Shown here: positions 13,246 through 28,812 of the stretch, one piece after another
Position numbering within the stretch: the stretch's first letter is position 1
How the letters are laid out: every line of letters starts with the position of its first letter
Origin: Paracoccaceae bacterium
GTDB lineage: Bacteria; Pseudomonadota; Alphaproteobacteria; Rhodobacterales; Rhodobacteraceae
Assembly (NCBI GenBank): GCA_947468085.1
Contig: CANIKY010000003.1
Location: 1,853 to 65,852 of the forward strand
DNA length: 64,000 nucleotides
Reading direction: 5' to 3'
Made by a program: the position numbers and the translations under genes
Notes under the pieces: generated by a model
The model's database searches: none
What the model was told of the DNA's origin: nothing
Seen by the model: only the letters and a program-made list of their open reading frames with translations

Positions 13246-13271
13246 CCTGTTTTTCTGCGGCAGCCCTTAAA

Positions 13272-13505: not shown

Positions 13506-13659
13506 ACTTTCCCGACCCGGTTTCGCCTACCACACCCAAAACTTCCCCGCGCTTCAAACTGAGGTTGACGGCGCTGACAGCGTGAATCTCACCCTGTCTG
13601 GTATGAAAAACGGTCTTTAGCCCCCGAACATCCAGAACGGGCGCTGCGCCATTGGCCAT
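13506..13659 (-). pseudogene. N-terminal fragment of oligo/dipeptide ABC ATPase (OppD/DppD), broken at Walker A
   Basis: 'VLDVRGLKTVFHTRQGEIHAVSAVNLSLKRGEVLGVVGETGSGK', then an abrupt switch to permease DNA in another frame. Confidence 0.9.
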
Positions 13660-13956
13660 GAATTTCTCTCCAGAAGGCCGTTTTTATCTATGTTTGTTCA
13701 GCAGATAAGCTTTCAGACACTTGCGCAGAAAAAAGTCTTTCGCATTTCGCGCCTTCGAGGAACCTAGAATTTTGCGGATGTGCCGATCTGGTGCTGTATG
13801 AGCCCGAAAAGGGGCGCACGCCCTTGGGCGGAAACGATCGGGCGAGCAATCATTTAGCCCCCCGCGCCCATCAAACCTTGCGCAAGACCTTTATCTGCTT
13901 TCCCAAAGCCGCCCGACCCAGTATGCGTAACAATCTTTGAAGATTTGGGAAAAATC

Positions 13957-14502: not shown

Positions 14503-14669
14503 AGCGTCATCGCAGGGTGTTTGTAGTGTAAACTTACCAGCGGTGTCATTGCTGGTAACTGGGTGATCTGCCGCGCCAGTACGGTGACACTCATCCTACT
14601 TGCCATTTCGCCCTGTGATCCAGACAGGTAATCTGCCGCCGCCCGCCGGCATCGTTTCATAGCGCCCTC

Positions 14670-15049
14670 GTGAGGCGTGATTTCCCCTTTCCCTGTTGAA
14701 CTTAGGCCATTCTGACGATCTCAGCGGTGCCGAGCGCATTGAAGCGGTTGATGAGGGCGATGCGGATTTGGATTTCGGCGGTTTGGCGGTCTGGGTCTCT
14801 CGCGGCGATGCGTTCTCCGAAGGCCTTGAGGCAGCGCATCTTGGCCTCGGTCCGGCTTGGGACGTGATATCCGGTCCAGCGCTTCCAGAACGCCCCTCCA
14901 TAGTGCCGGGTGGCGCGCAGCGTTTCGTTGCGGGCGATTGCGGCCGGGCAGTCTTCGTTCCACGGCCGGCCGTTCTTACGGATCGGGATGATTGCAGTGG
15001 CTTGGCGGTCGATGATGGCAGTGTGGCAGCGGCGCATGTCATAGGCCAC
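14670..15049 (-). mobile_element. IS5-family (IS903-group-like) remnant: transposase C-terminus only
   Basis: 'AYD.RRCH.AI..RQA.AIIPIRKN..W..GYH..SR.EAKMRCLK.FGERI.ARDPDRQ.AEIQIR'. 5' end truncated; no terminal IR recognised. Confidence 0.88.
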
Positions 15050-15132
15050 GACATCCAGTACCGGTTTGAGTATCCCGACGTCTGGATCTTCGACAAACGT
15101 TGGTCTTGGAACGAGATTTACATAGTTCGCGC
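15046..15132 (+). repeat. 87-bp partial copy of 16304-16390 (inside the downstream methyltransferase gene)
   Basis: Manual alignment gives 82/87 identical with no gaps; abuts the truncated IS. Confidence 0.93.
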
Positions 15133-15494
15133 TGCGGCCGCAGCCAAGGCGGCAATTGCAGGCTTCGCCACCGCGTTCAATTCAGTGAACCTTGGCCTTG
15201 TGCATCGACTGAAGGCCCCGACTGAAAGGCGCTTTGAGAATGTGGCGCGGTCCGCCCACGCGGATGCAGCATTCCCCTGCACGACAGGGGGGGACGATGA
15301 CGAACCCAAGTAAGACCGCTTTCGTGTCAACGACGGTTTGCTCGCGTGGTCTGAGGCTGATCTCCCGGATGGCAGGCGTTGCAGTTGCCCCATGTGTCGA
15401 TGACGCACAACGCCAAGTCCGCAGGCTGACGACTTGCAGCAACCGGCCATCGTGAGTATGTTTAGGGAGTATTTTAGCATGGAGATTTTCGGAC

Positions 15495-16532
15495 ATGGAG
15501 ATTGGTCAAAACGACCCGCTTAAGGCTGATATTGTGACGCCCCAACAGATTGCGTTGCTAGCACAGCATGTTTTGAAACGCGAACTGTTACCCGGCGAGA
15601 TTGCGAACTGGATGAACCGCGCAACGAAAATGGGCCATGATTTCGAGGCCTGTTTCGCGCTGATGATCGTAACGCCGGAGTATCTAGGCCGTGCCGGTGT
15701 GAACCCGGGGCATCCGCCCGGTCACTACTATTCCCCGATCGTGAACCCTGCGGAACTGAAGACCCATTTTCGCGTCGATCGCAAAAAGCGGGTCGACGAC
15801 CTTCCGGGACTGCTTGTGCGCGACGCCACGTTGCAGGCCGAATTCGCGGTGCTTGCGCCCTTGATTGCAAAGCACCGCTTCTCGAAGACCAAGACGGAAG
15901 GCGAACGCTATTTCATCGACAACGGTGTCTATCCGCAGGGCGACGCGATCATACTTGCCGCGATGATAGCCCGTTTTCGGCCAAAGCAGATCATCGAGAT
16001 CGGTTCGGGCTTCTCTACCGCGTGCATGCTTGATGCGATCGAACGTGAGGGGCTGGAGACGACGATCATCTGCGTGGAGCCTTTCCCGCAACGCCTGCGC
16101 AGCACCCTGACCGACCGTGACACGGACCGCGTGACGATCATCGAGGCGATGGTCCAGACCACCGCGCCTGAGATGTACGACACGCTGGAAGCGGGCGACA
16201 TCCTGTTCATCGACTCGACCCATGTGGTGAAGACCGGCAGCGATGTGTGCTTTGAGATTTTCGAGATCCTGCCGCGGCTTAAGCCGGGCGTTATCGTGCA
16301 TTTCCACGACATCCATTACCCGTTCGAGTATCCCGACGTCTGGATCTTTGACAAACGTTGGTCTTGGAACGAGATTTACATGGTTCGCGCGTTCCTGATG
16401 TACAATGATCGCTTCCGCGTGATCGCCTTTAACAACTATTGGGGGCAGCACCACCGCCCAGAGCTTGAGTCAGCCTATGGCGCGTCCGTCCCAAACCCCG
16501 GTGTAAGCATCTGGATGCGGGTTTTGGAATAA
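15495..16532 (+). CDS. Class I SAM-dependent methyltransferase (Methyltransf_24-like) with N-terminal extension
   Basis: 'IIEIGSGFST', 'ILFIDSTHVVKTGSDV', 'VHFHDI.YPFEYP..W....WNE.Y'. This family is typical of surface-polysaccharide loci. Confidence 0.88.
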   Translation: MEIGQNDPLKADIVTPQQIALLAQHVLKRELLPGEIANWMNRATKMGHDFEACFALMIVTPEYLGRAGVNPGHPPGHYYSPIVNPAELKTHFRVDRKKRVDDLPGLLVRDATLQAEFAVLAPLIAKHRFSKTKTEGERYFIDNGVYPQGDAIILAAMIARFRPKQIIEIGSGFSTACMLDAIEREGLETTIICVEPFPQRLRSTLTDRDTDRVTIIEAMVQTTAPEMYDTLEAGDILFIDSTHVVKTGSDVCFEIFEILPRLKPGVIVHFHDIHYPFEYPDVWIFDKRWSWNEIYMVRAFLMYNDRFRVIAFNNYWGQHHRPELESAYGASVPNPGVSIWMRVLE

Positions 16533-16534
16533 TT

Positions 16535-16738
16535 TCAGAGAGGTTTTGATTTTGATAAACGTTGGTTGTCTGCCACTGCCTTCTCAGACACCTTGCCATA
16601 GCTGGTCAACATGGCCTGACGCCACGAACTGCCAGCATAATTGTTCGAAAAAGCGATCTTCATCGATGACGTATCAGCAAAGCTGACGGTCGAGGCGGCG
16701 GACAGCAACAAAGCCGCAAGTGCGAGCGTATTTTTCAT
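16535..16738 (-). pseudogene. Truncated sugar ABC transporter substrate-binding protein (N-terminal ~57 aa)
   Basis: Signal peptide plus 'MKIAFSNNYAGSSWRQAML'; homology-like sequence ends near 16567. Confidence 0.8.
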
Positions 16739-16812
16739 TGGTGATTCCCTCCCAAGTGTCCACCGTTACGATCCCGCTTCTTTGGCAGACCGGGTGGCAA
16801 AAAGAAGCGCCA

Positions 16813-16828
16813 CACTAACTTGTTAGTG
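16813..16828. promoter_or_regulatory. Palindrome CACTAAC-TT-GTTAGTG, candidate operator
   Basis: Perfect 7-bp inverted repeat about 75 bp upstream of the truncated SBP start. Confidence 0.45.
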
Positions 16829-16858
16829 AGTCAATTCGCATAAGGGGCCGAAATATTA

Positions 16859-16887
16859 GGAAAATCAATGCATTTCATTGATTTTCC
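16859..16887. repeat. Perfect 12-bp inverted repeat GGAAAATCAATG-N5-CATTGATTTTCC
   Basis: Read directly from the sequence; function unknown (hairpin or operator). Confidence 0.6.
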
Positions 16888-17029
16888 ATTCTGCAAACGC
16901 CGAGGCAGAGAAACCCTTTTTAACCACCCGCAGCTATAATCTCGGCCAAGAAAAGCGCAGGCTGTTGCCAGCACTGCGCCCTTTCCCATGCTTTCTGGGT
17001 CAGCCCAACTGCCCCTTTAGGCCTTGGGC

Positions 17030-17674
17030 TTGCGAATGACCAGTTGAGCCCACGCGCCCTTAAAGCCGGGCTTCGGTGGGGCATGCGATCGTGTTCTCCA
17101 TGACGGTCGTATCGACCGTCCCAGGGCTGACGCTGCTCTCGTCGATGGCGCCGGATTTGCGCCCAGCCTCGATGGTCTGGGTCAGCAGCCATTGCACGGA
17201 GGGTCCTCCCCGATCCCCTTGCGCCAGCTTGTCAGCGAGGACGGATCGATGGGCAGGCGGTGCCGATAGAAGGGCGCACCAGTGAGATGCTGGTTGTATG
17301 GGTTCTCAACCCAGCGGGCGACAGTCACTTCATCTGACACCCGATAGGCGTGCTGCAGATAAAGCAGGCCCGCCACCAGTCTCGAGGGTATGGCCGGCCG
17401 CCCGGTTGCCGATGGAAAGAACCCCGATCATTCCCGATCAAAGACCTCCCAGTCGATCAGGGCCGTCAACGTCATCAATTCATGGCGCAGATCTATCAGG
17501 TCGACCAGACGCCGGCGGAGCAAGTCATCTTGTTCAGACGGGCGCGGTGCTTCATTTGCATACCGAAATTGCAGGGTTCACCATGAAATCATATAAAACC
17601 CTACAGGCGGAGGCCAGAAAACAGTCACAGTATAATGCAAAATCAATGGGCTGGAGGGTGTTCAGGGTGAACTA
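17030..17674 (-). mobile_element. Degenerate IS5-family element (5' end plus transposase N-terminus with stops and frameshift)
   Basis: ATG at 17555: 'MKHR...DDLLR.RLVD.ID.RHEL..L..LIDWE'; 'AGLLYLQHAYR.SDE..VARWVENPY', 'PIDPSSLT.WRK.IGE', 'WLLTQTIEAGRKSGAIDESS..VDTTVME'. Internal TGA/TAA stops. Probable left end near 17671-17674. Confidence 0.88.
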
Positions 17675-17690
17675 TTTAAATCACTCCACG

Positions 17691-18998
17691 TTAGTCACGA
17701 AGGGCAAGTTCTTGAATCCGGGCTATCGGCTGCCAGAAATACTCCAAAACACTTCTTTTGCCTGACAATACATCCACCGTGGCAGTCATACCTGGGATAA
17801 TTTTGGCAACTTCTCCATTAGCCATACGCAATTCGCCTAACAGTGCTACATCTACCAGATAATAACTCGTACTTTTACTCCGGTCGTCCACAACAGCATC
17901 TGGACTGATGCGCCGGACCACACCATCTACTGAACCATATTTGGTTGAATCATAAGCCGATAGTCGTATGCGCACCGCATCGTCCAATCTTATGCGTGAT
18001 ATGTCCTTTGGCATGATCCTTGCCTCAACCATCAGTGCTTCACCGGTTGGAACTAATTCGAGCATCGCGTCCCCTGTTTTCACAAAACCACCGGACGTTC
18101 TGAAGTTCAACTTGCTAACGATCCCATCCATCGGCGCGCGGATCACTGTACGGCTCACTCGTTCTTGCAAGCGAGGAAGAGATTCCCGCTGTTCACTCTG
18201 ATCGGCGACTACGGCGTTAAGTTCTTCCATTGCGCGCAGTTTGTAGTTAGCGCGGGTATTTTCGACTTCCGATTCAATTTGTAATATAGATGATTGCGCT
18301 TGCTCAATCGCAATTGCCGCCCTGTCATGGTCTCCGAGCGCTTGCTCTAACTGACGCCGAAGTTCCAAAAGCCGGGTCTCTGGCGCTATGTTGTCGCGAA
18401 CCAATGGCTCGACCATTTTAATTTCTTGGGTAAGCAGGCCAGCAGTCCGCTCAGCAGTTCCAACAGTTGTTTCGGCGACACGTAAATCTTGTTGGCCCTG
18501 CCTAATACGCTGATCAAGTACAGCCAGCTGTCCGGCCAGTTCCGCACGGCGGGCCGCGAAAAGGTTTTGTTCTGTCAGAACGACCAGTGGCGATTTTGCA
18601 TCAAGGTCGGCAGCAATGGATAGGTCTTTACCGGAGATCTCGGCACGAAGCCTTTGCTCTTTTATATCAAGGCTGGCCAGACGCTGGGTCAAACTGTTAA
18701 ATTCACTACTTGCGTCGACTGGATCGATCTCAAATAAGGTTTCACCTTCCGCAACAACAGAGTTCTCAGACACAAATCGACGCAATATCACCCCGCCCTC
18801 TGAAGCTTGCACGATCTGGTTTTGAACTGACGATATAATGCGACCCTCACCACGGGTGACATTGTCAAGTTTCGCCCATGAGGCCCAAACCAACAGCATC
18901 ACGATCATCGTTCCGATGGCTAAGATTACTGCCGAACCAGCCAACCCATCACGCCCAGCCAAATCACGAGACAGACGCTTAAAATCAAATTCAGACAT
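17691..18998 (-). CDS. HlyD-family type I secretion periplasmic adaptor
   Basis: N-terminal TM helix, 'VTRGEGRII', coiled coil, 'IRAPMDGIV', 'DISRI', 'PGMTATVDVLSGKRSVLEY'. Confidence 0.96.
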   Translation of the reverse strand: MSEFDFKRLSRDLAGRDGLAGSAVILAIGTMIVMLLVWASWAKLDNVTRGEGRIISSVQNQIVQASEGGVILRRFVSENSVVAEGETLFEIDPVDASSEFNSLTQRLASLDIKEQRLRAEISGKDLSIAADLDAKSPLVVLTEQNLFAARRAELAGQLAVLDQRIRQGQQDLRVAETTVGTAERTAGLLTQEIKMVEPLVRDNIAPETRLLELRRQLEQALGDHDRAAIAIEQAQSSILQIESEVENTRANYKLRAMEELNAVVADQSEQRESLPRLQERVSRTVIRAPMDGIVSKLNFRTSGGFVKTGDAMLELVPTGEALMVEARIMPKDISRIRLDDAVRIRLSAYDSTKYGSVDGVVRRISPDAVVDDRSKSTSYYLVDVALLGELRMANGEVAKIIPGMTATVDVLSGKRSVLEYFWQPIARIQELALRD

Positions 18999-19009
18999 TG
19001 TGCAGCCCC

Positions 19010-21295
19010 TTACCGCGCCTGTGACCGGAGTTTGTCCGGTGTCGTGTCAGCTACTACCATGCCCTGCTCCATAACGATCACACGGTCGACTAACTCTAAA
19101 ATTGTGTTTCGGTGCGTAACTATAACCAAAGTTCTATCCTTGGCCCAAGCGCTTAGGCGGCTAAGCACGATCTTTTCTGTCGAGGTATCCATTGATGCCG
19201 TCGGTTCATCAAGAATAAGAATACTGGGAGCATGCAGCATCGCGCGCGCTAAGCTAATTGACTGGCGTTGACCACCAGAAATACCTTCACCACGTTCTTT
19301 CAATACTAAATCGTATCCCTGTGGATGACTTGATAAGAAGTCATCTACCCCAGCGGTCCGAGCAACCGAAAGTATGTGAGCGTCGTCGTATTCGTAAAAA
19401 CCCATCTGCAGGTTTTCTTTAACGGAGCCAGAAAATAGCCAAGTTTCTTGAAGCATAACGCCAATGTTTCGTCGTACATCCGACCTATCTAGTTGTCGCA
19501 AATCCACGCCATCAATCAAAATTGCACCCTCGCTGGGTTCAATTAAGCCTGAGATCAATCGCGACACAGTAGATTTACCTGATCCCATTTTGCCGAGTAT
19601 TGCCACTTTCTGCCCCGCTGGAATCTTCAGGGACAAATTACGTATGATAGGGCTACTCGCACCAGGAAAGCTGTAGGTTACACCCTTAACTTCAATACTG
19701 CCGTCGATATGCGGTCGGCTGAGTCGAGCGTGTACTTCGTTTGAAGCGCCATCACTTGGATTCATTACGGAAGAAAGCGATCGATAAGCCTCGCGCGCAC
19801 CATTGGCGCGGGACAACGCAGCCGCGAGTTGCGATAATGGACCCAGCGCACGGCCGCCTAGCATCACAGCGGCGATCATAGAGCCCATCGTTATTGTGCC
19901 CGCTTGGATAAGAAACACGCCGTAGAATATTGTAGCTATCTGAGCAAATTGTTGAAGTGATGCTGCAGAGTTAATCGCAAAGTTCGAAAGTAATCTACTT
20001 TTCAGGCCAAGATTGGATTGGGCATCTGCTGCTTCTTCAAACCGTCGACGCATCATTCGACCCGAGCCTGTAGCTTGAACCGTTTCTAGCCCCGTGAGGG
20101 TTTCAACAAGAACGCCTTGCTTTGACATATTACTTTGCATCGAGCCTTGGGTGACCCGAGCAAGAAAAGGCTGAATGACGAGACCCGTCAAAATAACTAG
20201 TGGCACGGCGATCAAGGGAATGATCGCAAGAGGCCCAGCGATCATCCAAATCACCCAAATGAACAAGAAGATGAAGGGTAGGTCAATCACTGCAATCAAC
20301 GTTGCAGACGTAAAAAACTCCCGAAGAGTATCAAATTCACGAACGATGCTAGCCATGGCCCCTGACATTTGACGACGGTTGTCAAGTTTCATCGTAATAA
20401 TCTTTTCAAATATCAATCGTGACATTCGTGCATCGGCTCGTTTGCCAGCTTTGTCCACGAACTGCGCTCGGAGCGTCTTGATTAGGAAATCAAACCCGAG
20501 GGCGATAAGTACCCCAATTGTAAGCGCAATCAATGACTCAATCGCCTCGTTTGGTACAACGCTATTGTAAACCACCATGATGAAGAGAGAAGTTGAAAGT
20601 CCCAGAAAGTTAGACAAGGCAGCAGCGATCAATACTTGTACGTAGATCCACTTTCCTTGCAGCAGCGAGCCAAACAACCAATCGTTCTTTCTTTTCAATC
20701 TATCGGCAACATGTACTTTGCGTGCAAAAATGAAGTACGGTTCGAGTTGTTCAGTCAGTTTATCTTTTACAAATCGTTGATCAATTATTTTTGCATCATC
20801 CTCAAACCGGCGCACAAGAAGAAAGTCCTGTTCATCTTTTGAGTGAATGACCACAGGCGCTCCTGTTTTGAGAAAGCCAATGGCTGGCAGGTGTCCGTCC
20901 TTAAGTTTCTTTGGGTGCATCTCGCCGTAACTTGCCTGAAAGCCTGCATGATTAAGAGCCGCAACTGCCGATATGGGATTAAAGCTTGCAGTGTTCAATT
21001 CAGGCAAATCACGCACGGCCCCGATGGAAAACCTTTGTCCCGACAGTGACAGTATATGCTGCACAGCAAGTATTAACGGCGGGGAAGGAATTGCACTTCC
21101 GTGGGAATTACTGCGGCTTTCGGCAGTGGTCAAACCTGAACCCAAAAATTTTTCATTTTCACTGCTGTGCTGAGCAGTGGGTTCAGGATCATTGATCTGT
21201 TCCAGTACTACGCTGACGATCGCATCACGTTCGTCGCCGTCAGTATTGACAGAAGCGGCAACCGAAGAAGTGCCTGCGACATCACCTTTCACCAT
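19010..21295 (-). CDS. Type I secretion ABC permease/ATPase (LapB/HlyB-like, with C39-like domain)
   Basis: C39-like N-domain with no evident catalytic Cys, 'VYNSVVPNEA', Walker A GKMGSGKS, ISGGQRQ, LILDEPT. Confidence 0.95.
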   Translation of the reverse strand: MVKGDVAGTSSVAASVNTDGDERDAIVSVVLEQINDPEPTAQHSSENEKFLGSGLTTAESRSNSHGSAIPSPPLILAVQHILSLSGQRFSIGAVRDLPELNTASFNPISAVAALNHAGFQASYGEMHPKKLKDGHLPAIGFLKTGAPVVIHSKDEQDFLLVRRFEDDAKIIDQRFVKDKLTEQLEPYFIFARKVHVADRLKRKNDWLFGSLLQGKWIYVQVLIAAALSNFLGLSTSLFIMVVYNSVVPNEAIESLIALTIGVLIALGFDFLIKTLRAQFVDKAGKRADARMSRLIFEKIITMKLDNRRQMSGAMASIVREFDTLREFFTSATLIAVIDLPFIFLFIWVIWMIAGPLAIIPLIAVPLVILTGLVIQPFLARVTQGSMQSNMSKQGVLVETLTGLETVQATGSGRMMRRRFEEAADAQSNLGLKSRLLSNFAINSAASLQQFAQIATIFYGVFLIQAGTITMGSMIAAVMLGGRALGPLSQLAAALSRANGAREAYRSLSSVMNPSDGASNEVHARLSRPHIDGSIEVKGVTYSFPGASSPIIRNLSLKIPAGQKVAILGKMGSGKSTVSRLISGLIEPSEGAILIDGVDLRQLDRSDVRRNIGVMLQETWLFSGSVKENLQMGFYEYDDAHILSVARTAGVDDFLSSHPQGYDLVLKERGEGISGGQRQSISLARAMLHAPSILILDEPTASMDTSTEKIVLSRLSAWAKDRTLVIVTHRNTILELVDRVIVMEQGMVVADTTPDKLRSQAR

Positions 21296-21350
21296 AATCT
21301 GAAATTCCTGTATTGTTCAGACCGATCAACGGTCAAGGTATAAACGGAAA

Positions 21351-22805
21351 TCAAAGTCCAAGCTTGCGACTTAATTCACCGGTACGCGACCCTATAACCA
21401 GCAGCAACAAATCATACTCTGCTTTCATAGTGACCATCTGATCACGCGCACGGAAATTCCGGATTTTCGTATCAATCAACTGACGCAGGTCCGACTGGCC
21501 AGTAGCAATCTCTGATTGAGCGGTATCAATTTCAGTTTCTGAGAGGCGTATTTTCTCATCTATCAATGGCATTGATTTTTCAAGCGCTTTCAATCTGCTC
21601 ATTGCAACATTTAACTCTGTTTCCAACAGATGCTGCGCCTCGTTTAAAGCTGCTTGTGTGCTGTCAAGTTGCGATTTTGCTGCATTCAACTGAGCTTTCC
21701 TGCGCCCACCATCCGTGAACGTGTAGTTGAATACTAAACCGATAGAAGCGTCACTGCTTTGATCGCTCTTTAGTGGTGTAGTTAGCCCGGCCTGTATCCG
21801 TGCACGGGGGCGGAAATTGGATTCAGCGACGGCTAATGATTGTTGAGCGATCAATACCGCTGAGGCGCTGCGCTGTAAGCTTGGCGACTGGCGCCAACCA
21901 GCTGCCACCTCGTGCGCTGCAGCATATTTTATGACCTGTTCAGGCGGCGAAATGTTATTTGGGTTCTGTTTATAGTAGTGTTCAAACTGTGACTTTGCCT
22001 CGTCAAGGCTTGTTTTCAGCTGAAGTTCCTCAAGCGTGAAATCCATGGCCTGACTGCGTGCGCTATCTAGGGCGGAACGCCCTATCATGCCATTTTGTTC
22101 CATTCGTTCCATTTGAGCAATTAGCGTCTCCATCTCTGCTCTTCGAGAGGCAAGCAGGTTAAGACGCTCACTAAATTGCCAGAAATCAATCCAAGCCCGC
22201 GCTGCGGCGAGGGCGGTGGTATTTCCTTGAACCATGCGATCGGCCTGAGCGCCCAATGCCTCTGCAGTCGCAATATTTGTGGTTGCAGCACTTTCGCCGC
22301 CATCAAATACCAACTGAGACAGCGTAACACCACCGGCAATCCCAGCGTCTCCAGATGCGGTGGAACTTCCAATCGGTCCTATGGCACCGACATTCGCATT
22401 ACTGGAAACTTGTGCCCGCCTCGCACTGGAGGCCACTAAAATGCGGCTCTTGGCGGCTTCTTCAAGCGCCATAGCCGCGCGATAACCTTCGTTCATCGTT
22501 ACCGCAGAGCGAAGCGCAGATTGAAAGCCCTTTGAAACATCCACAGGGTTAATCTGTGAAGAGGGGCTGGTAGTTCCACCTGCTGCAAGCTCAGCTGTGA
22601 CACCTTTGGACATGTTGTCTATATCGATGGGTTTTTCGCCACATGCTGTCAAAGACACGGCAAGGAAAGACACGCACATAATTTTGAATATGCTGACGGG
22701 CCGCATTGGGTTGAACCTGTTCATTGGTTCTGCGGGGATTTTGCGCTGCAAATCCATATTTGAAACGATCGTCAATGTCTGCACGGAAACCAGTTTGTTA
22801 GGCAT
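21351..22805 (-). CDS. TolC-family outer-membrane channel (lipobox LTAC)
   Basis: OEP helical repeats, 'QLVFDGG'. Start uncertain: ATG 22805 overlaps the upstream stop, while ATG 22706 gives the best lipoprotein signal. Confidence 0.88.
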   Translation of the reverse strand: MPNKLVSVQTLTIVSNMDLQRKIPAEPMNRFNPMRPVSIFKIMCVSFLAVSLTACGEKPIDIDNMSKGVTAELAAGGTTSPSSQINPVDVSKGFQSALRSAVTMNEGYRAAMALEEAAKSRILVASSARRAQVSSNANVGAIGPIGSSTASGDAGIAGGVTLSQLVFDGGESAATTNIATAEALGAQADRMVQGNTTALAAARAWIDFWQFSERLNLLASRRAEMETLIAQMERMEQNGMIGRSALDSARSQAMDFTLEELQLKTSLDEAKSQFEHYYKQNPNNISPPEQVIKYAAAHEVAAGWRQSPSLQRSASAVLIAQQSLAVAESNFRPRARIQAGLTTPLKSDQSSDASIGLVFNYTFTDGGRRKAQLNAAKSQLDSTQAALNEAQHLLETELNVAMSRLKALEKSMPLIDEKIRLSETEIDTAQSEIATGQSDLRQLIDTKIRNFRARDQMVTMKAEYDLLLLVIGSRTGELSRKLGL

Positions 22806-23034
22806 TTTTGTCCGCCTTTGCACCCGACACAGCGCCGACAAGTTTGCCGGTGGCTTGCAGTTCTGCCTTCAGTTGCTCAGTAAATCCTGTCTTAGCCATT
22901 TGGTAAACAGCGATCTCTTGGTTTATCTTCTGCATCTGACTTTTTACCAACTGAAGTCCAGACAAATTGGCTCTTCCAGCATCGCTCAAATCTTCCGAGT
23001 GGAACTCGATCCCATCAATCTTGATTCTAGGCAT
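22798..23034 (-). CDS. Small DUF6447-like protein (78 aa)
   Basis: 'IKIDGIEF..EDLSD.GRANL..LQ.V..QM.KI.QEIAVYQ.AK' matches my recollection of the DUF6447 pattern; lies in operon position. Confidence 0.7.
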   Translation of the reverse strand: MPRIKIDGIEFHSEDLSDAGRANLSGLQLVKSQMQKINQEIAVYQMAKTGFTEQLKAELQATGKLVGAVSGAKADKNA

Positions 23035-23049
23035 ACATTCTCTCCGGCG

Positions 23050-23280
23050 TCACTCTTCACCCAAAATCGAACGCAAATCCACACCGGTCTTGTTTCGGAC
23101 AATTTCTATCTTAAGGTCAGAAACGTAGGTGTTCATAGCCTTCGTAAGCAGTACCTGCTGTTTGCGCAACTCTAATAATCGGGCTTCGACAAAGGAAAGG
23201 TTTTTTATCGTCACTTTCCCTTGATCGGTAAGATCATCTTCTTTGACGTCGTGTCCATCTAACCTGATGCGCAAGCTCAT
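23050..23280 (-). CDS. Second small DUF6447-like protein (76 aa)
   Basis: 'IRLDG..V.EDDLTD.GK..IKNL.FVEARL.EL..Q..LL.KA.NTYV..LK' has the same hairpin-plus-helix layout as its neighbour; GGAG RBS before ATG 23280. Confidence 0.65.
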   Translation of the reverse strand: MSLRIRLDGHDVKEDDLTDQGKVTIKNLSFVEARLLELRKQQVLLTKAMNTYVSDLKIEIVRNKTGVDLRSILGEE

Positions 23281-23386
23281 TGATCTTAACACTCCATGTT
23301 TTTGGGGGAATGGTGGTCAGGTGACGTCAAAGCCTATGACCTGGCAGATGCGATTAAGGCGTTTGAAGGGCTGTCTTATCAAATTT

Positions 23387-23411
23387 TTAGGGCCGCAAAA
23401 AGCGGCCCTAA
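23387..23411 (-). terminator. Stem-loop after the large RTX gene (terminator or mRNA-stabilising hairpin)
   Basis: TTAGGGCCGC-N5-GCGGCCCTAA, a perfect 10-bp stem about 50 bp past the stop codon; weak U-tract. Confidence 0.6.
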
Positions 23412-23461
23412 GGTAGTCAGTTATGTAATCGCATTTGAGAGCGACTTTGGCACAGTTTACA

Positions 23462-26400
23462 TCAAATACCGGTAAACTGCAGGATCTTGTCATCATCGGT
23501 TGTTGTCACGTCTACGAAGTAATCGAACTTGATAATCGTGTCATCACCACTGTTTGTGTCGAAAGCCCCATCTGCGTTGGCGTCCATCAGCACATAAGTG
23601 TTCCCGTCAGCATGGGTCACTAGGATGTTCGAACTTGCTTCGTTGAACACACCATTGTCAGCGGCAGCTGCCATCATGTCTTCAAATGACCCGTAGTCGG
23701 TGTCGTCTGTTGCCAGTTCAGACGGGCCCTCTTCGCCAATGCTCGTCAGGTCAAGGGTTCCGTAGCCGTCGCCAATCGTATCCATGGCGTCAGCGTTAGA
23801 GTCTTCGACAGATGTGAACACGTAGGTGTCGTCACCGCCGTCACCGTCCAAATAGTCAGCGCCACTTCCGCCTGATAGACGGTCGTCATGATACCCGCCG
23901 TAAAGCGTGTCGTCACCATCACCGCCGGCCAAGGTGTCTTCATCGTCAGAACCTTCCAGTAGGTCGTTACCGGCGTCACCGTTAATAGAGTCAGCGCCAT
24001 AATAACCGTACAACTCGTCGTCACCATCACCGCCGGCCACGGTGTCATCACCCCAATCGGCGTTCAGTTCGTCGTTACCGGCGCCACCTATCAAGGAGTC
24101 TTCATCATCCCCGCCGTTGATATAGTCGTCGCCCTCACCGCCGGCCAAGATGTCATCACCATCTTCGCCGTACATTTCTTCATCGCCGGCGTCACCCATT
24201 ACAGAGTCATTACCATCGCCAGCCTCGATATAGTCATCACCCTCACCGCCGGCCACGGTGTCGTCACCGTCACCGCCGTACAGCTCGTCACCACCGGCGT
24301 CACCCATCAAAGAGTCGTCGCCGCCGTTACCCTCGATATTGTCGTAAACAGCACCGCCATACACGGTGTCATTGCCACTGCCAGTTTGGATATCATCGCC
24401 GCGCGCCCCGCCGTAGACGGTTAGGTTGGCGTTAATATCCCTCAGATCCATGTCTTCAGAGAAGGCGCTGCCGTAGACAGTGAGATCAGAGATATTGTTA
24501 TCCAACCGGTGCCAATTGGCTTCAGACCCTTTCAGATCCTGGAAGTCGACGCTGGCCGTGAATTGGTTGTCATACTCGTCGTCGTCGGCATTCAATCTAA
24601 ACAGCGAGGCTGCGTCTGTTTCAGTAATGTTCGCAGTCACCGCCCCATCCGTCAGGGCAGCAATCGCAAGTGCCTGGGTAACAGTGATGGACTCTTCCAT
24701 GACAGTGACATTCACATCGTCGCCGACGTAGCCGTTGTCGTTTTCTAGCAGGTTCTCATAGGTGTCAGCGATCCCGTCTTCAGCATAATTCAGGTCAGCG
24801 TTGCCATTGGCATCATCGGCAGCGGCAACCTGGGCTAGGGTTGCGGCATCTGTGAACGTTATGTCGATGCCGTTTAGATCAATATCGCCAACATTTGCCG
24901 CAATATTCGCGGCACTGTCCAAGATATCTGTGAAGTGGACCCATCCGATGCCATTCATCGCATTCATCTGGGTGATGTCATCAAGCGAAGCACCCGTAAC
25001 GTTGATGTTAAAGTTCGCCGGGCTGTCAATGTCAGCTTGCGACAGGGCGTACAGATCTTCGATTGATCCTGAGATTTCTGTCACCCCGGTCGCATCGATC
25101 ATGACACCAGTTTTGTCAATCAGATCCAACAGATCGTCAGCGTCAGCTGCACCGGTAACTGTCAGTGTCAGCATGTCATCGCTGTCAGTGTCGTCGAGAT
25201 CAATATTAAGGCTCGCAGCCGTACCAGAAGTTACAGTTGCGGTTACCACGCCCTCGGTCGCGGCACACAGCAAGTTGGCGTTGGTTGCCGAGATAGCCGC
25301 GCCAGTCACAGTGACGGCCACATCTCCAGATACCCAGTCATTAACACCATTATCTTCTGAGAGATCGATAAGGTGGGTGGCGGTGTCACTGATCGCGTCA
25401 TAAGACAAATTGTCAGGATCAGCGTTTGATATTGCCTCCAGTTGGTCGATCGTGGCTGCGTTTGTCACGGTCACATCATCCGCGCCGTCCAAGTACGCGC
25501 CGCCAGCGTTCAGAAGATGGCCCGCAGTATCGCTGAGGTCGTAGAATAGTTGAAAGTCCCCCATCAGATCTAAAGCGTGAATTTGATCAACAGTGGCGTT
25601 TTCAAGCACGTCAACGTTCAAGACACCATGAACCCAATCACTTGCAAGAAGGTCTGCGATAGTGCCGCTTACAAAATCATAGCTCACGTCACCAGTTGTG
25701 GCGTCAGCTATCGTATCAAGATCGGAAACCAACGCGTAGTAGCCTGTTACGTCAGCATCAAAGTTGGCCTTCAAAGTGATGTCGCCATATTCAATGATTT
25801 GCACAATGTCAGCAGCCGGTCCAGCAATCGCCACTACCGCCGACGCATTGATCGTCTCACCAGTTCTGTCATCCAAGAAAATCAGATCCGCAGCGCTGGT
25901 CTCGGCGTCGAGCACTGTCAGTGACAGCATGTCATCGCCGTTGGCGTGACTGAGGTCACCGCGAAGGTTCTCAGCCGTATCAGCAGTTACAGTTGCGGTT
26001 ACCACTCCGCCTGTCGCATCGCAGATTGTGTTGGCGTCTTCAGCGGAAATCGCGGCGTCCGTTACAGTGACGTTAACACTGCCATATACCCAGCTTTCGA
26101 GATCATCGTTAATGTTCTCGAAAGTGTCGCTGATCGCGTCATAACTAAAACCATCTCCTACAGCGTTAGCGATCGTAGACAGTTGGTCGATCGTGGCTGC
26201 GTTTGTCACGGTCACATAATCGGCGTCTGACAAGTAATTGCTGGCAGCGATCGTAAGAAGATGGCTCGCTGTGTCAGCAAGGTTGAAGGTCAATTCACCG
26301 TCCGTCATCAGGTCTAAGTCGGCAATTTGATCGACAGTGGCGTCGTCACTCACGGTGACGTCCAAGTCCACGTCGCCCTCGTAGTCAGTAATCCAGTCAC

Positions 26401-28729
26401 TCACTAAAAGGTCTGCGATGTCTCCGCTTACGCTCGTATAGCTTATGGTTCCACTTGTCACCGCAGCAATCCCGTCAAGGTCTGAAAGCGACGGCGTACC
26501 TTCCACGACAACATCAAAGTCCTCATCCAAAGTGATGTCGGCGTCGCCAATGAGGCTCGCAGCAATGTCGTCGGCGTCTACTGTAATCTCTGTCACGCCT
26601 GATGCATCAATCGTTACATCAGTTTTATCATCCAGATCGAACAGTTGCGAGGCGCTAGCTGTACCGGTAACTGTCAGGGTAAGCATGTCATCGCTATCGG
26701 CGTCGCCGAGCGCAGCAAGTAGGTTTGACGCTGTATCAGGCGACACTGTGGCAGTAACCACATCGTTTGTGTTGTCGCAGATTGTGTTGGCGTCTTCAGC
26801 GTCAATCGCGCCGCCCGTCACAGTGACCTTCGGGTCATAGTTCCAGATATAGCTGACGTCAGCATCAACGTCGGCAAGAAGGTTGTCGATGCTGTCGCTG
26901 ATCGAAAACGTCACAAAATTCATGTTGTAAACTGCATCAATCGCTGTAAGTTGCGCGATGGTTGCCGGGTCAGTGATTTCAATTTCACGGGCGCTACTGA
27001 CGTAATGGCCATCGTTTGCGGCGAGGTTTTCCGCCGTATCCATCAGGACATAGTCAAGATCACCAGCGCCATTTAGGGCGTCAAGTTGAGCGATTTGATC
27101 AATTGTGATCAGGGCCCACTCCTCTGTCCGCTCGTCCCACGTTTGTATGTCGTAGCGGGTACCAAGATCGAGTGTTTCAGATGTTGATAAGGCCAACAGG
27201 TCTTCATACGACCCCCAAATATTCGTCACGCCTGTAGCATCAACCGTCGCGGTCGTAATCGCGGCAAGCGCTAGCAGGTCCGACGCAGCAAATTCGCCCT
27301 CCACTTCAAAGCTCCAAGCGTTCCCAGCTTCAAGGCTCAGAAGGTCATCGAGGAACCCATCAACAGAGTCTAGGTCCTCCACCACAGTTGCGGTGATCGC
27401 CACCTCAGTCGCTGCCGCGATGGCATCCGCCTGAGCGAAGGTGGTGTTTCCACTTGCCGTGACGCCCGTCGCATCTGCCAAGATCGAAGCATCAGCGTTG
27501 GCCAGATTTTCGCCCGAATCGAGCAGCGAGTAGGTGCCATCGTTCACGGTGATAGTGTCACGGTTTGTAGCGTCATCGACAACCGCACCGTTACGCACTG
27601 TTGCCTCAGCGGCATCTTGCGCGGCCGACAGACCGGCCACAGACGCGTTCGACACGTTAGCCGCCGTCAGCGATTCGTCGGTCAAGGTGTAAGACGTTGC
27701 GCCAGACAGCACGCCTTCGTCAGCGTCAGTCAAATTCTCCAGCGTATCGAGCAGCGTGTAGGTGACATTGCTGGTCAAATCATCTGCGTTTACAGCATTT
27801 TCTACAATAGTTTCAACTGCAGCAACATGATCTGCCAGTTCAGCGACAGTCCTTTCGCCAGCATCATAGTTCGCGTCGGCAAGCGCATAATGATCAGGGC
27901 TGGATCCATCATCTAGATAATTTGCAACCAATTCAGACAGGGTGAGCGTTGGCGGAGCCCCTGTTTCATCAACAACGTCTGCGCCTCCATCGTTGAGTTC
28001 CCGAATTTGATCAGCGGTCAACGATCCGGCCTCGGCTTCAAACGTAACCGTCACGCCCTCGCAAGCCGCCAATTTTGCCATTACGGCGTCAAAATCGTCA
28101 CCGACCGCAAATTCAACACGGATGTCCGCAGACGTTGCGCCCGAGCGCAGTTCGACATCAAGCAATGCAGCAAACTGATCGGCAGTGAGCACCGCTGTTG
28201 AGCCAAGGATCATCGTAACGCCATCGAAGGCTGAACTGTCGATGGCGGTAAAATCAACCGTGCCGTTTACAACTTCGATGATCGAGAAGCCCGTAATCGT
28301 GCTCGTGCCCGTCAATACCACAGTGTCTTCGGCGTTACCGTCAAGGAACTTGAACGACAACTTATCGCCACTTGCCGCGTCGCCCGTGGCAGTAATTTCT
28401 ATGCCGTCGTAGTGATTATCACCAGCAATGTCCGCAACGTTGATCACGGCACCAACGCTCGTGCCCTGGATCACGATTGGGCTTAGCATGTTCCCCGGGT
28501 TCAGCTGGGCAACGGTCGCTACCACCACAGGAGGTACCACAGGATCAGACGAAGACCCGCAGGCCGCCAAGGTCAGCAGCGTTGTCGAAAGGCCAATGCC
28601 ATTTGCAACAACTGCGGAATTTTTTCGAGTCAAAAGGGTTCTAACGCCTTCAGACCGACGCTCTAGAGGCTTCGGTGCCAGTGCATTAGATACGGCTTCC
28701 TTAGAACCAAACTCAAAATCTTTCGCCAT
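23462..28729 (-). CDS. Large acidic repeat-rich RTX/calcium-binding surface protein (adhesin or S-layer-like), T1SS substrate
   Basis: About 20 GGxGxD-type nonapeptides near the C-terminus, long D/T/A/V-rich beta repeats, no classical Sec signal, upstream of the T1SS genes. Confidence 0.92.
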   Translation of the reverse strand: MAKDFEFGSKEAVSNALAPKPLERRSEGVRTLLTRKNSAVVANGIGLSTTLLTLAACGSSSDPVVPPVVVATVAQLNPGNMLSPIVIQGTSVGAVINVADIAGDNHYDGIEITATGDAASGDKLSFKFLDGNAEDTVVLTGTSTITGFSIIEVVNGTVDFTAIDSSAFDGVTMILGSTAVLTADQFAALLDVELRSGATSADIRVEFAVGDDFDAVMAKLAACEGVTVTFEAEAGSLTADQIRELNDGGADVVDETGAPPTLTLSELVANYLDDGSSPDHYALADANYDAGERTVAELADHVAAVETIVENAVNADDLTSNVTYTLLDTLENLTDADEGVLSGATSYTLTDESLTAANVSNASVAGLSAAQDAAEATVRNGAVVDDATNRDTITVNDGTYSLLDSGENLANADASILADATGVTASGNTTFAQADAIAAATEVAITATVVEDLDSVDGFLDDLLSLEAGNAWSFEVEGEFAASDLLALAAITTATVDATGVTNIWGSYEDLLALSTSETLDLGTRYDIQTWDERTEEWALITIDQIAQLDALNGAGDLDYVLMDTAENLAANDGHYVSSAREIEITDPATIAQLTAIDAVYNMNFVTFSISDSIDNLLADVDADVSYIWNYDPKVTVTGGAIDAEDANTICDNTNDVVTATVSPDTASNLLAALGDADSDDMLTLTVTGTASASQLFDLDDKTDVTIDASGVTEITVDADDIAASLIGDADITLDEDFDVVVEGTPSLSDLDGIAAVTSGTISYTSVSGDIADLLVSDWITDYEGDVDLDVTVSDDATVDQIADLDLMTDGELTFNLADTASHLLTIAASNYLSDADYVTVTNAATIDQLSTIANAVGDGFSYDAISDTFENINDDLESWVYGSVNVTVTDAAISAEDANTICDATGGVVTATVTADTAENLRGDLSHANGDDMLSLTVLDAETSAADLIFLDDRTGETINASAVVAIAGPAADIVQIIEYGDITLKANFDADVTGYYALVSDLDTIADATTGDVSYDFVSGTIADLLASDWVHGVLNVDVLENATVDQIHALDLMGDFQLFYDLSDTAGHLLNAGGAYLDGADDVTVTNAATIDQLEAISNADPDNLSYDAISDTATHLIDLSEDNGVNDWVSGDVAVTVTGAAISATNANLLCAATEGVVTATVTSGTAASLNIDLDDTDSDDMLTLTVTGAADADDLLDLIDKTGVMIDATGVTEISGSIEDLYALSQADIDSPANFNINVTGASLDDITQMNAMNGIGWVHFTDILDSAANIAANVGDIDLNGIDITFTDAATLAQVAAADDANGNADLNYAEDGIADTYENLLENDNGYVGDDVNVTVMEESITVTQALAIAALTDGAVTANITETDAASLFRLNADDDEYDNQFTASVDFQDLKGSEANWHRLDNNISDLTVYGSAFSEDMDLRDINANLTVYGGARGDDIQTGSGNDTVYGGAVYDNIEGNGGDDSLMGDAGGDELYGGDGDDTVAGGEGDDYIEAGDGNDSVMGDAGDEEMYGEDGDDILAGGEGDDYINGGDDEDSLIGGAGNDELNADWGDDTVAGGDGDDELYGYYGADSINGDAGNDLLEGSDDEDTLAGGDGDDTLYGGYHDDRLSGGSGADYLDGDGGDDTYVFTSVEDSNADAMDTIGDGYGTLDLTSIGEEGPSELATDDTDYGSFEDMMAAAADNGVFNEASSNILVTHADGNTYVLMDANADGAFDTNSGDDTIIKFDYFVDVTTTDDDKILQFTGI
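23815..24415 (-). repeat. RTX (hemolysin-type Ca-binding) nonapeptide array
   Basis: Contiguous GGxGDDxL/AGGEGDDY repeats in the translation. Confidence 0.93.
25265..26801 (-). repeat. Internal ~252-aa (756-bp) tandem repeats in the RTX gene, three copies (anchor span)
   Basis: Repeat Cys codons at 25265, 26021 and 26777 (756-bp spacing). Identical 27-mer at 26019/26775 and identical 38-mer at 25439/26180. Confidence 0.9.
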
Positions 28730-28812
28730 TTGACCCGATTTCCTTTTTTTGCAGATGATTTACCCGATGGTTACCCTTTAACTCTGGACTAAGATCCATG
28801 AAAGGATAAAAG

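What the first reader, a model, noticed from the sequence alone, without database searches (positions are those of the whole stretch)
22798..23280. Two tandem DUF6447-like microproteins embedded in the T1SS operon
Seen: two 76-78-aa proteins share an I.(I/L)DG hairpin, an (E/D)DL(S/T)D motif and a long amphipathic helix. They lie between cargo and TolC, 15 bp apart, and the second overlaps a possible TolC start. Established: canonical T1SS have three components. Inference: unrecognised accessory subunits, such as a heterodimeric cytoplasmic chaperone for the huge acidic cargo or an assembly factor.
Basis: partly seen in the sequence, partly recalled or inferred. Interest (0 to 1): 0.7.

Follow-up and report, generated by a model that had tools for sequence, protein, structure and literature searches.

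The report
Paired microproteins travelling with T1SS cargo
Two small, related coiled-coil proteins encoded between a giant secreted RTX protein and its type I secretion pump belong to a large uncharacterised family (DUF6447) that sits beside such cargo genes in many bacteria, so they are probably a cargo-specific helper that no paper in the searched library describes.

Summary
On the minus strand, 76-aa gene A (23280-23050) and 78-aa gene B (23034-22798) lie 15 nt apart. They sit between a 1755-aa RTX protein and TolC/LssB-type ABC/HlyD genes. A and B are paralogues (25% identity, E 1e-8) under purifying selection.

Neither protein hits Pfam directly. A profile of their clade, however, matches bona fide DUF6447 proteins at 99.5% probability. 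A profile search found 1177 family clusters.

In Rhodobacterales the family usually forms tandem triplets of three subtypes. The window carries subtypes 2 and 3. Natural fusions of two family domains exist. AlphaFold gives a beta-hairpin plus a 45-residue helix for each protein, and no solved structure resembles it.

Of 63 genomic loci, 30 have a T1SS HlyD-type gene within 10 kb, against about 1.3% expected. A further 13 have SapC next door. At least six gene orders occur. Partner pumps are LssB-type or PrtD-type, so no C39-like domain is required.

In two genomes an RTX-SapC-pair cassette is repeated once per cargo gene. My best reading is a cargo-cognate cytoplasmic hetero-oligomer that acts as chaperone or adaptor. 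That function is inferred, not shown. Only 6 of 401 sampled genomes carry the family, while 105 have an LssB-type pump, so it is optional.

The parts
23050..23280 (-). Gene A: 76-aa microprotein, family subtype 2. It has a beta-hairpin, a long helix and a conserved C-terminal tail (K-T-G-V-D-L-x-x-x-L).
   Evidence: ORF and RBS. Homologues of 95-100% and 68% identity. Family HMM hit at 72 bits. Subtype assignment. dN/dS about 0.2. Fold.
22798..23034 (-). Gene B: 78-aa microprotein, family subtype 3 (the M-P-K-I-T-I-D-G-I-E-Y type).
   Evidence: ORF and strong GGAGAG RBS. Homologues. Family HMM hit at 91 bits. AlphaFold2 pLDDT 80 with strands 3-6 and 9-12 and helix 18-61.
23462..28729 (-). Cargo: 1755-aa acidic RTX protein directly upstream of A.
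   Evidence: PF00353 HemolysinCabind at 98.6 bits. pI 4.1 and 11 GxGxD motifs.
23387..23411 (-). 10-bp GC-rich stem-loop just after the cargo stop codon. It may be a partial terminator or a transcript-stabilising element that separates the cargo from A, B and the pump genes.
   Evidence: RNA fold of 23281-23470: z = -3.1, and the stem is kept in both the MFE and centroid structures. The consensus terminator scan did not call it because the U-tract is weak.
21351..22724 (-). TolC-family outer-membrane lipoprotein. The ORF stays open up to 22841, and the start is uncertain.
   Evidence: PF02321 OEP at 103.6 bits. TIGR01844 at 85.9 bits, below its cut-off. The lipobox is seen in the translation.
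19010..21295 (-). LssB-type T1SS ABC permease/ATPase, 761 aa.
   Evidence: TIGR03375 at 744 bits, above the 693-bit cut-off.
17691..18998 (-). HlyD-family T1SS membrane-fusion protein, 435 aa.
   Evidence: TIGR01843 at 321 bits, above the 209-bit cut-off. PF13437.

Best explanation
A and B are real, conserved, soluble cytoplasmic microproteins. They are two paralogous subtypes of the DUF6447 superfamily. Each is an N-terminal beta-hairpin followed by one helix of about 45 residues. They most likely pair through their helices into an antiparallel hetero-oligomer. This complex most likely acts as a cargo-cognate accessory factor for type I secretion of the adjacent RTX protein. It would be a holdase or adaptor that binds the unfolded, very acidic cargo or its C-terminal export region in the cytoplasm and hands it to the ABC/HlyD/TolC pump. 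This would parallel the small chaperones encoded beside type III effectors. Shown: the genes are real, they belong to the family, they form tandem paralogues and fusions, their fold is predicted, they are linked to T1SS cargo, SapC and pump genes, and the cassette is duplicated per cargo. Inferred: hetero-oligomerisation, cytoplasmic location, cargo binding and any effect on secretion.
For: Real genes: 1177 family clusters. Purifying selection, with dN 0.23 against dS 1.17 for A, and pN 0.16 against pS 0.86 among subtype-3 genes.

Family: 56 of 97 profile hits match PF20045. hhalign of the window clade against 18 bona fide DUF6447 proteins gives 99.5% probability, E 1.5e-22.

Hetero-oligomer: tandem arrays of three fixed subtypes in the order 1-2-3 are the rule in Rhodobacterales. 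Natural subtype-2+3 fusions exist (P0011, P0160), as does a separate clade of two-domain proteins joined by a short conserved linker. The conserved residues (F29, A47, Y51, L55) fall on a 3-4 spacing typical of a helix-helix interface.

T1SS link: a family gene lies directly 3' of a 1197-1755-aa RTX/DUF4214 protein in the window and in L005, L019, L025, L027, L029 and L031, and after a 394-aa RTX protein in L030. A HlyD-type MFP lies within 10 kb in 30 of 63 genomic loci, and in 17 of 32 loci with at least 15 kb of flank. Only about 1.3% of positions in the window's own genome meet that criterion. All five hits of an unbiased HMM search of 400 genomes lie near T1SS, SapC or cargo genes.

Cargo-cognate: the cassette RTX-SapC-subtype 1-subtype 3 occurs twice, convergently, behind one pump operon in Yoonia (L062). 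It also occurs two to three times between integrases in CP180347.1 (L059). Loci also exist with cargo and small genes but no pump within 10 kb (L019, L029).

Cytoplasmic, chaperone-like properties: no hydrophobic run longer than 5 residues, and a family median pI of 5.0. The fused model has a prefoldin-beta-like topology (Foldseek probability 0.97, but E 0.43, not significant).
Against: No experiment or interaction prediction links these proteins to cargo, and AlphaFold-Multimer was not available. The structural resemblance to prefoldin is not statistically significant, and the monomer matches nothing. Subtype 3 is 70-90% identical across genera while cargo bodies differ widely. So any cargo contact would have to be with a conserved part, such as the RTX block or the C-terminal signal. 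That pattern fits binding to the conserved pump equally well. The window's own genome has 17 cargo-like giant acidic ORFs but only one A/B pair. Most LssB-type systems lack the family, so T1SS works without it. Window A (pI 6.6) and B (pI 8.0) are less acidic than typical secretion chaperones. Loci are phylogenetically related, so the enrichment counts overstate independence.
Confidence: 0.5

Rival explanations
1. Pump-side factor: the A/B complex binds the cytoplasmic face of the machine (the ABC nucleotide-binding domain, or the N-terminal tail of HlyD). It would promote assembly or gate or regulate export, and would not touch the cargo.
For: In the window the genes lie after a stem-loop that follows the cargo gene and directly before TolC-ABC-HlyD, so they are probably co-transcribed with the pump. 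In six loci the triplet follows HlyD by about 550 nt (L038, L040, L041, L043, L061, L064). The high conservation of subtype 3 fits a conserved partner.
Against: The family accompanies two different exporter subfamilies, LssB-type in 7 of 10 and PrtD-type in 3 of 10. The cassette duplicates with cargo and not with the pump. Loci exist without any pump within 10 kb. About 95% of sampled genomes with an LssB-type exporter lack the family.
Confidence: 0.2
2. Co-exported small substrates: A and B are themselves secreted by the T1SS. They would be a two- or three-component bacteriocin-like or surface-layer accessory peptide set, comparable to the CdzC/CdzD pair of Caulobacter.
For: Tandem small paralogues next to a T1SS recall two-peptide bacteriocin loci (PMC5380434, seen). 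Subtype 2 and the betaproteobacterial single genes carry conserved C-terminal tails, G-V-D-L-x-x-L-F and G-D-T-L-K-F, which could be export or docking signals.
Against: There is no double-glycine leader, no glycine-zipper or hydrophobic segment, and no immunity gene. The sequences are highly conserved across genera, unlike fast-evolving bacteriocins. The whole protein is one conserved coiled-coil unit and leaves no separate 50-residue signal region.
Confidence: 0.08
3. Immunity or antidote proteins that neutralise a toxic domain of the adjacent RTX protein inside the producer.
For: The position is directly 3' of the cargo with one set per cargo gene. Polymorphic toxin-immunity pairs are arranged this way, and earlier notes of this scan describe RTX loci with immunity-like arrays.
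Against: Immunity proteins diversify with their toxins. Here the small proteins are far more conserved than the cargo, whose sizes (394-1958 aa) and bodies differ. No toxin domain was found in the window cargo by Pfam. Fixed subtype order and fusions point to one conserved complex.
Confidence: 0.07
4. A coiled-coil structural protein unrelated to secretion, for example ZapA-like, that merely hitch-hikes on mobile islands which also carry T1SS genes.
For: Weak Pfam ZapA hits occur for 4 family members (E 0.001-0.004). A similar I-x-I-x-G-x-x-Y hairpin begins ZapA. Integrases and IS elements flank some loci. The window island is AT-richer than its flanks.
Against: hhalign against 25 ZapA sequences gives only 5-59% probability, confined to the hairpin. 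Foldseek does not retrieve ZapA. The genome has its own ZapA elsewhere. Adjacency to cargo, SapC or pump genes persists through at least six rearranged gene orders in three classes, which hitch-hiking does not explain.
Confidence: 0.05

Closest known systems
Pfam PF20045 (DUF6447), a catalogued family of unknown function
   Same: Same length class, same hairpin plus helix, and same conserved positions (D7, Y11, L-S, L-Q-F, T-A-R/K-x-x-Y, L-K-x-E). Profile-profile probability is 99.5%. More than half of the window proteins' profile hits are Pfam-positive.
   Different: The window proteins score below the Pfam model. They represent two specialised subtypes that occur as fixed tandem partners. 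No paper in the searched library mentions the family.
Type III secretion class I chaperones (e.g. SycE or CesT type), an analogy only
   Same: Small, mostly acidic and oligomeric. Encoded next to the cognate secreted protein, with one set per substrate. Proposed to keep the substrate export-competent.
   Different: Different secretion system and a different fold (hairpin plus single helix, not the alpha/beta chaperone fold). No sequence relation. The function here is untested.
Prefoldin beta subunit and Skp-type 'jellyfish' holdases
   Same: The two-domain unit is modelled as helix, beta-hairpin, helix in an antiparallel coiled coil, like prefoldin beta (Foldseek probability 0.97, TM 0.72 on the target).
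   Different: E-value 0.43, which is not significant. No Pfam prefoldin hit in 97 members. There is an extra N-terminal hairpin, and the oligomeric state is unknown.
SapC (PF07277) of the Campylobacter fetus sapCDEF S-layer secretion operon
   Same: Another uncharacterised non-canonical protein encoded with T1SS genes. It is the immediate upstream neighbour of DUF6447-family genes in at least 13 loci, of which 9 were tested and all 9 confirmed as PF07277.
   Different: An unrelated protein of about 250-300 aa. It is absent from the window's island; the genome's only SapC-like ORF is on another contig.
SiiA/SiiB of the Salmonella SiiE giant-adhesin T1SS, and LssX/Y/Z of the Legionella lssXYZABD locus
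   Same: These are precedents for extra genes in T1SS operons that export giant repeat proteins. The window's exporter is LssB-type (PMC6959600).
   Different: From my own knowledge, SiiAB are inner-membrane MotAB-like proteins, whereas A and B are soluble. Whether LssX/Y/Z are related could not be tested here.
ZapA (PF05164)
   Same: An N-terminal beta-hairpin of similar sequence pattern followed by a long coiled-coil helix. Weak HMM hits.
   Different: Profile-profile support is weak and local, and there is no structural match. The genomic context is entirely different.

Membership tests
Pfam DUF6447 (PF20045) | Score above the Pfam gathering threshold (27 bits) | tested here: not met
   hmmscan gives no hit at E<=1 for A or B. 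A six-frame scan of the whole genome with PF20045 gives no match at E<=10.
Pfam DUF6447 (PF20045) | Demonstrable homology to bona fide members | tested here: met
   hhalign of the window clade (A1) against 18 proteins that all hit PF20045 (A6): 99.5% probability, E 1.5e-22, 62 columns. 56 of 97 profile hits are PF20045-positive.
Pfam DUF6447 (PF20045) | Size and architecture (60-80 aa, N-terminal hairpin, one long helix) | tested here: met
   76 and 78 aa. AlphaFold2 secondary structure.
Type I secretion system operon (LssB/LapB-type) | ABC exporter of the LssB subfamily | tested here: met
   TIGR03375 at 744.3 bits against a cut-off of 693.1.
Type I secretion system operon (LssB/LapB-type) | HlyD-family membrane-fusion protein | tested here: met
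   TIGR01843 at 321 bits against a cut-off of 208.65.
Type I secretion system operon (LssB/LapB-type) | TolC-family outer-membrane factor | tested here: inconclusive
   PF02321 at 103.6 bits, above its cut-off. TIGR01844 reaches only 85.9 bits against a cut-off of 225.
Type I secretion system operon (LssB/LapB-type) | Substrate with RTX nonapeptide repeats near the C-terminus | tested here: met
   PF00353 at 98.6 bits, 4 stretches, around residues 1593-1627 of 1755.
Dedicated secretion chaperone (functional class, by analogy with T3SS class I) | Binds the cognate substrate and is needed for its secretion or stability | not testable with these tools
   No multimer prediction or experiment was available. 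Only genomic linkage supports it.
Dedicated secretion chaperone (functional class, by analogy with T3SS class I) | Small, acidic, encoded beside the cognate substrate | tested here: inconclusive
   Size and adjacency are met. The family median pI is 5.0, but window A is 6.6 and B is 8.0.
Prefoldin | Significant sequence or structure match to prefoldin subunits | tested here: not met
   No Pfam prefoldin hit. Foldseek E 0.43.
ZapA (PF05164) | Profile-level homology over the whole domain | tested here: inconclusive
   Pfam E 0.001-0.004 for 4 members. hhalign probability 5-59%, with only the hairpin aligned.
Two-peptide bacteriocin exported by a peptidase-ABC transporter | Double-glycine leader, hydrophobic or glycine-rich mature peptide, and a linked immunity gene | tested here: not met
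   None is visible in the sequences. There is no hydrophobic run longer than 5 residues.

The most novel reading that the evidence does not exclude
DUF6447 proteins, often together with SapC, are the first dedicated, substrate-cognate cytoplasmic chaperone/adaptor family for type I secretion. They would form hetero-oligomeric coiled-coil holdases made of one to three paralogues that keep particular RTX or S-layer-type cargo export-competent and deliver it to either LssB-type or PrtD-type pumps. T1SS is currently taught as needing no dedicated substrate chaperone.
Probability: 0.35. Interest if true: 0.8.

Novelty: new variant of a known kind. Interest (0 to 1): 0.62.

Why it matters
Type I secretion is usually described as a three-part machine plus cargo, with no dedicated substrate chaperones. 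From my own knowledge, the known exceptions are few: SecB for HasA, SiiAB, and the LapD/G retention system. This work shows that a catalogued but unstudied microprotein family tracks T1SS cargo genes through many rearrangements in Alpha-, Beta- and Gammaproteobacteria. It also forms fixed tandem partner sets and is duplicated cargo by cargo. That gives a concrete, cheap set of experiments (deletions, pull-downs, structures of roughly 8-kDa proteins). Those experiments address an open question: how proteins of 1000-2000 residues stay unfolded, undegraded and targeted before C-terminus-first export. The finding would also improve annotation of abundant marine Roseobacter-group genomes and could help heterologous T1SS-based secretion. 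It also links SapC, unexplained since the 1990s, to a partner.

Tried and rejected
1. Direct family scans of A and B against Pfam and NCBIfam gave nothing. PADLOC gave only noise-level hits.

2. PHROGs: phrog_21153 (unknown function) hits B and two distant family members at E 3e-4 to 8e-4. However, tblastn of two family members against 50,697 phage records found no relative, and a pattern scan of IMG/VR found none either. I did not pursue this.

3. Word-based homologue searches with the single proteins found only 5 relatives each. The profile search was needed.

4. The search for related loci with the 97-sequence alignment failed for lack of a conserved stretch. A narrower alignment worked, but it biases the 63 loci towards subtype 3 and its relatives.

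5. A block alignment of paired plus unpaired rows for the A+B fusion was misaligned by MAFFT and discarded. The 19-row paired alignment was used instead.

6. Programmed read-through between the in-frame genes: same-frame adjacency is 31 of 81, which is chance level. Rejected.

7. PDB sequence search and Foldseek against PDB and BFVD returned only non-significant generic coiled coils.

8. ZapA homology was inconclusive.

9. Literature searches for DUF6447 found nothing, and searches for T1SS accessory proteins or chaperones found nothing on this family. Searches for lssXYZABD and sapCDEF found papers on those loci, and the passages read did not describe such small proteins.

Full report
**What is in the sequence.** All relevant genes are on the minus strand. 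In order they are:
- a 1755-aa acidic protein with RTX repeats (28729-23462; PF00353, 98.6 bits);
- a 181-nt spacer;
- gene A (23280-23050, 76 aa);
- 15 nt of spacer;
- gene B (23034-22798, 78 aa);
- a TolC-family lipoprotein (ORF open from 22841, ending at 21351; PF02321);
- an LssB-type ABC exporter (21295-19010; TIGR03375, 744 bits against a 693-bit cut-off);
- a HlyD-type adaptor (18998-17691; TIGR01843, 321 bits).

A has a GGAG 11 nt before its ATG, and B has a GGAGAG 5 nt before its ATG. The spacer after the cargo gene holds a 10-bp GC-rich stem-loop at 23387-23411 (fold z = -3.1). The consensus terminator scan does not call it. The TolC ORF has an ATG at 22805 that overlaps the end of B. 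Its lipoprotein signal (lipobox L-T-A-C) starts only at Met40 or Met46, so the true start is probably 22724 or 22706. The island has 46-55% G+C against 54-64% in the flanks.

**Are A and B real and related?**
- Close homologues exist in metagenomes. One contig (L005; A 68% and B 56% identical) has the same order: cargo, A, B, TolC, ABC, HlyD.
- dN/dS for A between the window and L005 is about 0.2 (dN 0.23, dS 1.17). Among subtype-3 genes of different genera, non-synonymous differences are 0.16 per site while synonymous sites are saturated at 0.86.
- A profile of the two clades finds 1177 clusters at E<=1e-3 among 1.84 billion representatives, and 179 at E<=1e-10.

These are genuine, selected protein genes.

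**Family assignment.**
- Pfam and NCBIfam give no hit for A or B. PF20045 (DUF6447) finds nothing in the six-frame translation of the whole genome at E<=10.
- Even so, 56 of 97 profile hits match PF20045 (best E 4e-9), and one is named 'DUF6447 family protein' by NCBI.
- A profile-profile comparison of the window clade with 18 proteins that all match PF20045 gives 99.5% probability, E 1.5e-22 over 62 columns.

No paper in the searchable library contains 'DUF6447'.

**Anatomy of the family.**
- AlphaFold2 predicts, for B alone (103-row alignment, pLDDT 80), strands 3-6 and 9-12 and one helix at 18-61.
- For a read-through fusion of A and B, the same unit appears twice (19 paired rows, pLDDT 71, pTM 0.56). 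A and B are in the same frame, so table 4 yields a natural fusion.
- The nearly invariant residues (D7, Y11, L16, F29, A47, Y51, L55) include a 3-4-spaced set along the helix, as expected for a helix-helix interface.
- There is no hydrophobic run longer than five residues and no signal peptide. The family median pI is 5.0, with window A at 6.6 and B at 8.0.

A six-frame HMM scan of 63 genomic loci shows that in Rhodobacterales the genes usually come as tandem triplets, less often as pairs, and elsewhere as single genes. Three orthologous subtypes can be told apart and keep the order 1-2-3:
- subtype 1 carries N-E-W-A-V-A-D-T-A-R;
- subtype 2 is the window's A, with a conserved tail G-K-(S/T)-G-V-D-L-x-x-L-F;
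- subtype 3 is the window's B, the highly conserved M-P-K-I-T-V-D-G-I-E-Y-N-T-E-D-L type.

The window has 2-3, and some genomes have 1-3. Natural single-chain fusions exist. Some join subtype 2 to subtype 3 (P0011, P0160). A separate clade has two domains joined by a short conserved linker, L-P-E-K-x-A-x-A-N-K-K-K. A linker of 11-15 residues cannot span a 65-Å helix, so the two helices must be antiparallel. This agrees with the prefoldin-beta-like topology that Foldseek reports for the fusion model (probability 0.97, but E 0.43). Same-frame adjacency of neighbouring genes is at chance (31 of 81), so there is no sign of programmed read-through.

No solved or viral predicted structure matches significantly. 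A weak resemblance to ZapA is confined to the hairpin and remains inconclusive.

**Genomic company.** Contigs with precomputed Pfam annotation show a family gene directly 3' of a large RTX/DUF4214 protein in L019, L025, L027, L029, L030 and L031, as in the window. It is followed either by a T1SS operon (L031, L022), by SapC (L027) or by unrelated convergent genes (L019, L029).

| Neighbour within 10 kb | All 63 species-representative loci | 32 loci with at least 15 kb of flank |
|---|---|---|
| HlyD-type T1SS adaptor | 30 | 17 |
| SapC | 13 | 11 |
| Large acidic Cys-poor GxGxD-rich ORF | 28 | 20 |
| At least one of these | 43 | 26 |

All nine SapC-like neighbours that I tested are true PF07277.

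For background, the window's own 3.2-Mb genome has two HlyD-type T1SS adaptors, so about 1.3% of positions lie within 10 kb of one. Cargo-like ORFs are common there (17), which makes 'any feature' a weak criterion (16% background). The HlyD and SapC adjacencies are the informative ones.

An HMM search of 400 genomes sampled across the phylum, free of pattern bias, found the family in five. All five loci have T1SS, SapC or cargo genes nearby.

At least six gene orders occur:
- cargo, small genes, pump;
- pump, then about 550 nt, then a triplet;
- triplet, cargo, pump;
- pump, cargo, SapC, pair;
- SapC and a single gene, convergent with the pump;
- cargo and a single gene, with or without SapC.

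They are spread over Alpha-, Beta- and Gammaproteobacteria. Linkage that survives this much rearrangement argues for function. The loci are nevertheless related, so I give no formal p-value.

**Which partner?** Ten neighbouring exporters were typed. Seven are LssB-type and three are PrtD-type, and the latter lack the N-terminal C39-like domain. That domain therefore cannot be the required partner.

In the same 401-genome sample, 105 genomes have an LssB-type exporter above the cut-off but only 6 have the family. None of 19 genomes in the window's own taxonomic family has it. So it is an optional add-on, here on an AT-richer, probably acquired island.

The most telling evidence comes from two genomes:
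- In Yoonia (L062) one pump operon is followed by two convergent cassettes, each made of an RTX protein, SapC, subtype 1 and subtype 3.
- In CP180347.1 (L059) two such cassettes, plus a third truncated by an IS element, lie between phage-type integrases with no pump within 10 kb.

The small genes thus multiply with cargo genes and not with pumps.

**Mechanism.** The best-supported reading has three parts. The paralogues assemble through their helices into a soluble hetero-oligomer. That complex serves a particular cargo, and not the machine in general. Its task is to keep that long, unfolded, acidic protein export-competent or to present its conserved C-terminal region to the exporter.

The strong conservation of subtype 3 against very diverse cargo bodies means that any cargo contact must involve a conserved part: the RTX block, the C-terminal signal or SapC. 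The same fact keeps the pump-side model alive. I put about 0.5 on the cargo-cognate chaperone/adaptor reading, 0.2 on a pump-side assembly or regulatory factor, and less than 0.1 each on co-secreted peptides, immunity proteins and an unrelated structural role. None of the functional steps is shown.

**Comparison with what is known.** The proteins are divergent relatives of a catalogued family of unknown function. The operon is an ordinary LssB-type T1SS. Extra genes in T1SS loci have precedents (SapC, SiiAB, LssXYZ), but these soluble coiled-coil microproteins match none of them by sequence or fold. Their cargo-wise distribution recalls type III effector chaperones without any homology. I found no description of this linkage in the papers searched.

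**Limits.** The 63 loci were retrieved with subtype-3-biased patterns. Model coordinates could not be inspected.

Noticed in passing
window 23387-23411 (-): A perfect 10-bp GC-rich stem-loop lies immediately after the RTX gene's stop codon and is followed by A/U-rich sequence. It may attenuate transcription into A, B and the pump genes, or stabilise the cargo mRNA.
   Followed up: partly
window 22706-22841 (-): The TolC-family ORF has three candidate starts. A conserved ATG overlaps the B stop (ATGCCTAA) and is also used by the gene caller in L005, but the lipoprotein signal peptide starts 27-33 residues later.
   Followed up: partly
G000 whole genome (contigs C2, C5, C6, C14, C17, C25, C30, C44, C73 and others): The genome encodes 17 large, very acidic, Cys-poor, GxGxD-rich ORFs, one of them about 7000 aa on C17. 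It has only two T1SS HlyD-type adaptors and a single DUF6447-family locus.
   Followed up: no
L059 (CP180347.1, Rhodobacterales MAG) 4371-20183; L062 (Yoonia sp.) 1878-16577: The cassette RTX protein-SapC-DUF6447 subtype 1-subtype 3 is repeated. In L059 it lies between two phage-type integrases and is once truncated by an rve-family IS, which suggests that the cassette is mobile.
   Followed up: partly
L025, L027, L029 (Azonexus and other betaproteobacterial contigs), upstream of the cargo gene: A conserved upstream module (FecR-domain protein, CHASE2 adenylate/guanylate cyclase, TPR protein, sometimes a Crp-like regulator) precedes the cargo-DUF6447 pair. The single betaproteobacterial DUF6447 proteins end in a conserved G-D-T-L-K-F-(x)-N tail, which might dock on the TPR protein.
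   Followed up: no
P0018, P0021, P0024, P0028, P0031, P0042, P0044, P0064, P0084, P0128: A distinct clade of 127-147-aa proteins has two DUF6447 domains joined by a conserved basic linker (L-P-E-K-x-A-x-A-N-K-K-K). Their genomic context was not examined.
   Followed up: no
window B; P0164; P0115: All three hit PHROG family phrog_21153 (unknown function) at E 3e-4 to 8e-4 over nearly the full length. Neither a tblastn search of the phage records nor a pattern scan of the viral contigs found a relative.
   Followed up: partly
L003/L004 (metagenome contigs) 287-6255: A subtype-3 gene at a contig end is followed by a convergent block of a large TPR protein, a methyltransferase regulator (PF10119), a 2OG-Fe(II) oxygenase (PF13759) and a multi-methyltransferase. 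This may be a cargo-modification set.
   Followed up: no
window 18000-29000: The T1SS island has 46-55% G+C against 54-64% in the flanks. None of 19 genomes in the same taxonomic family carries DUF6447-family genes. Both facts fit horizontal acquisition.
   Followed up: partly
L036 (labelled Arcticimaribacter, Flavobacteriia) and L048 (labelled Limisphaerales): These MAG contigs carry Rhodobacterales-like triplets. L048 has the same layout as the Gemmobacter contigs L063 and L084. The contigs may be mis-binned.
   Followed up: no
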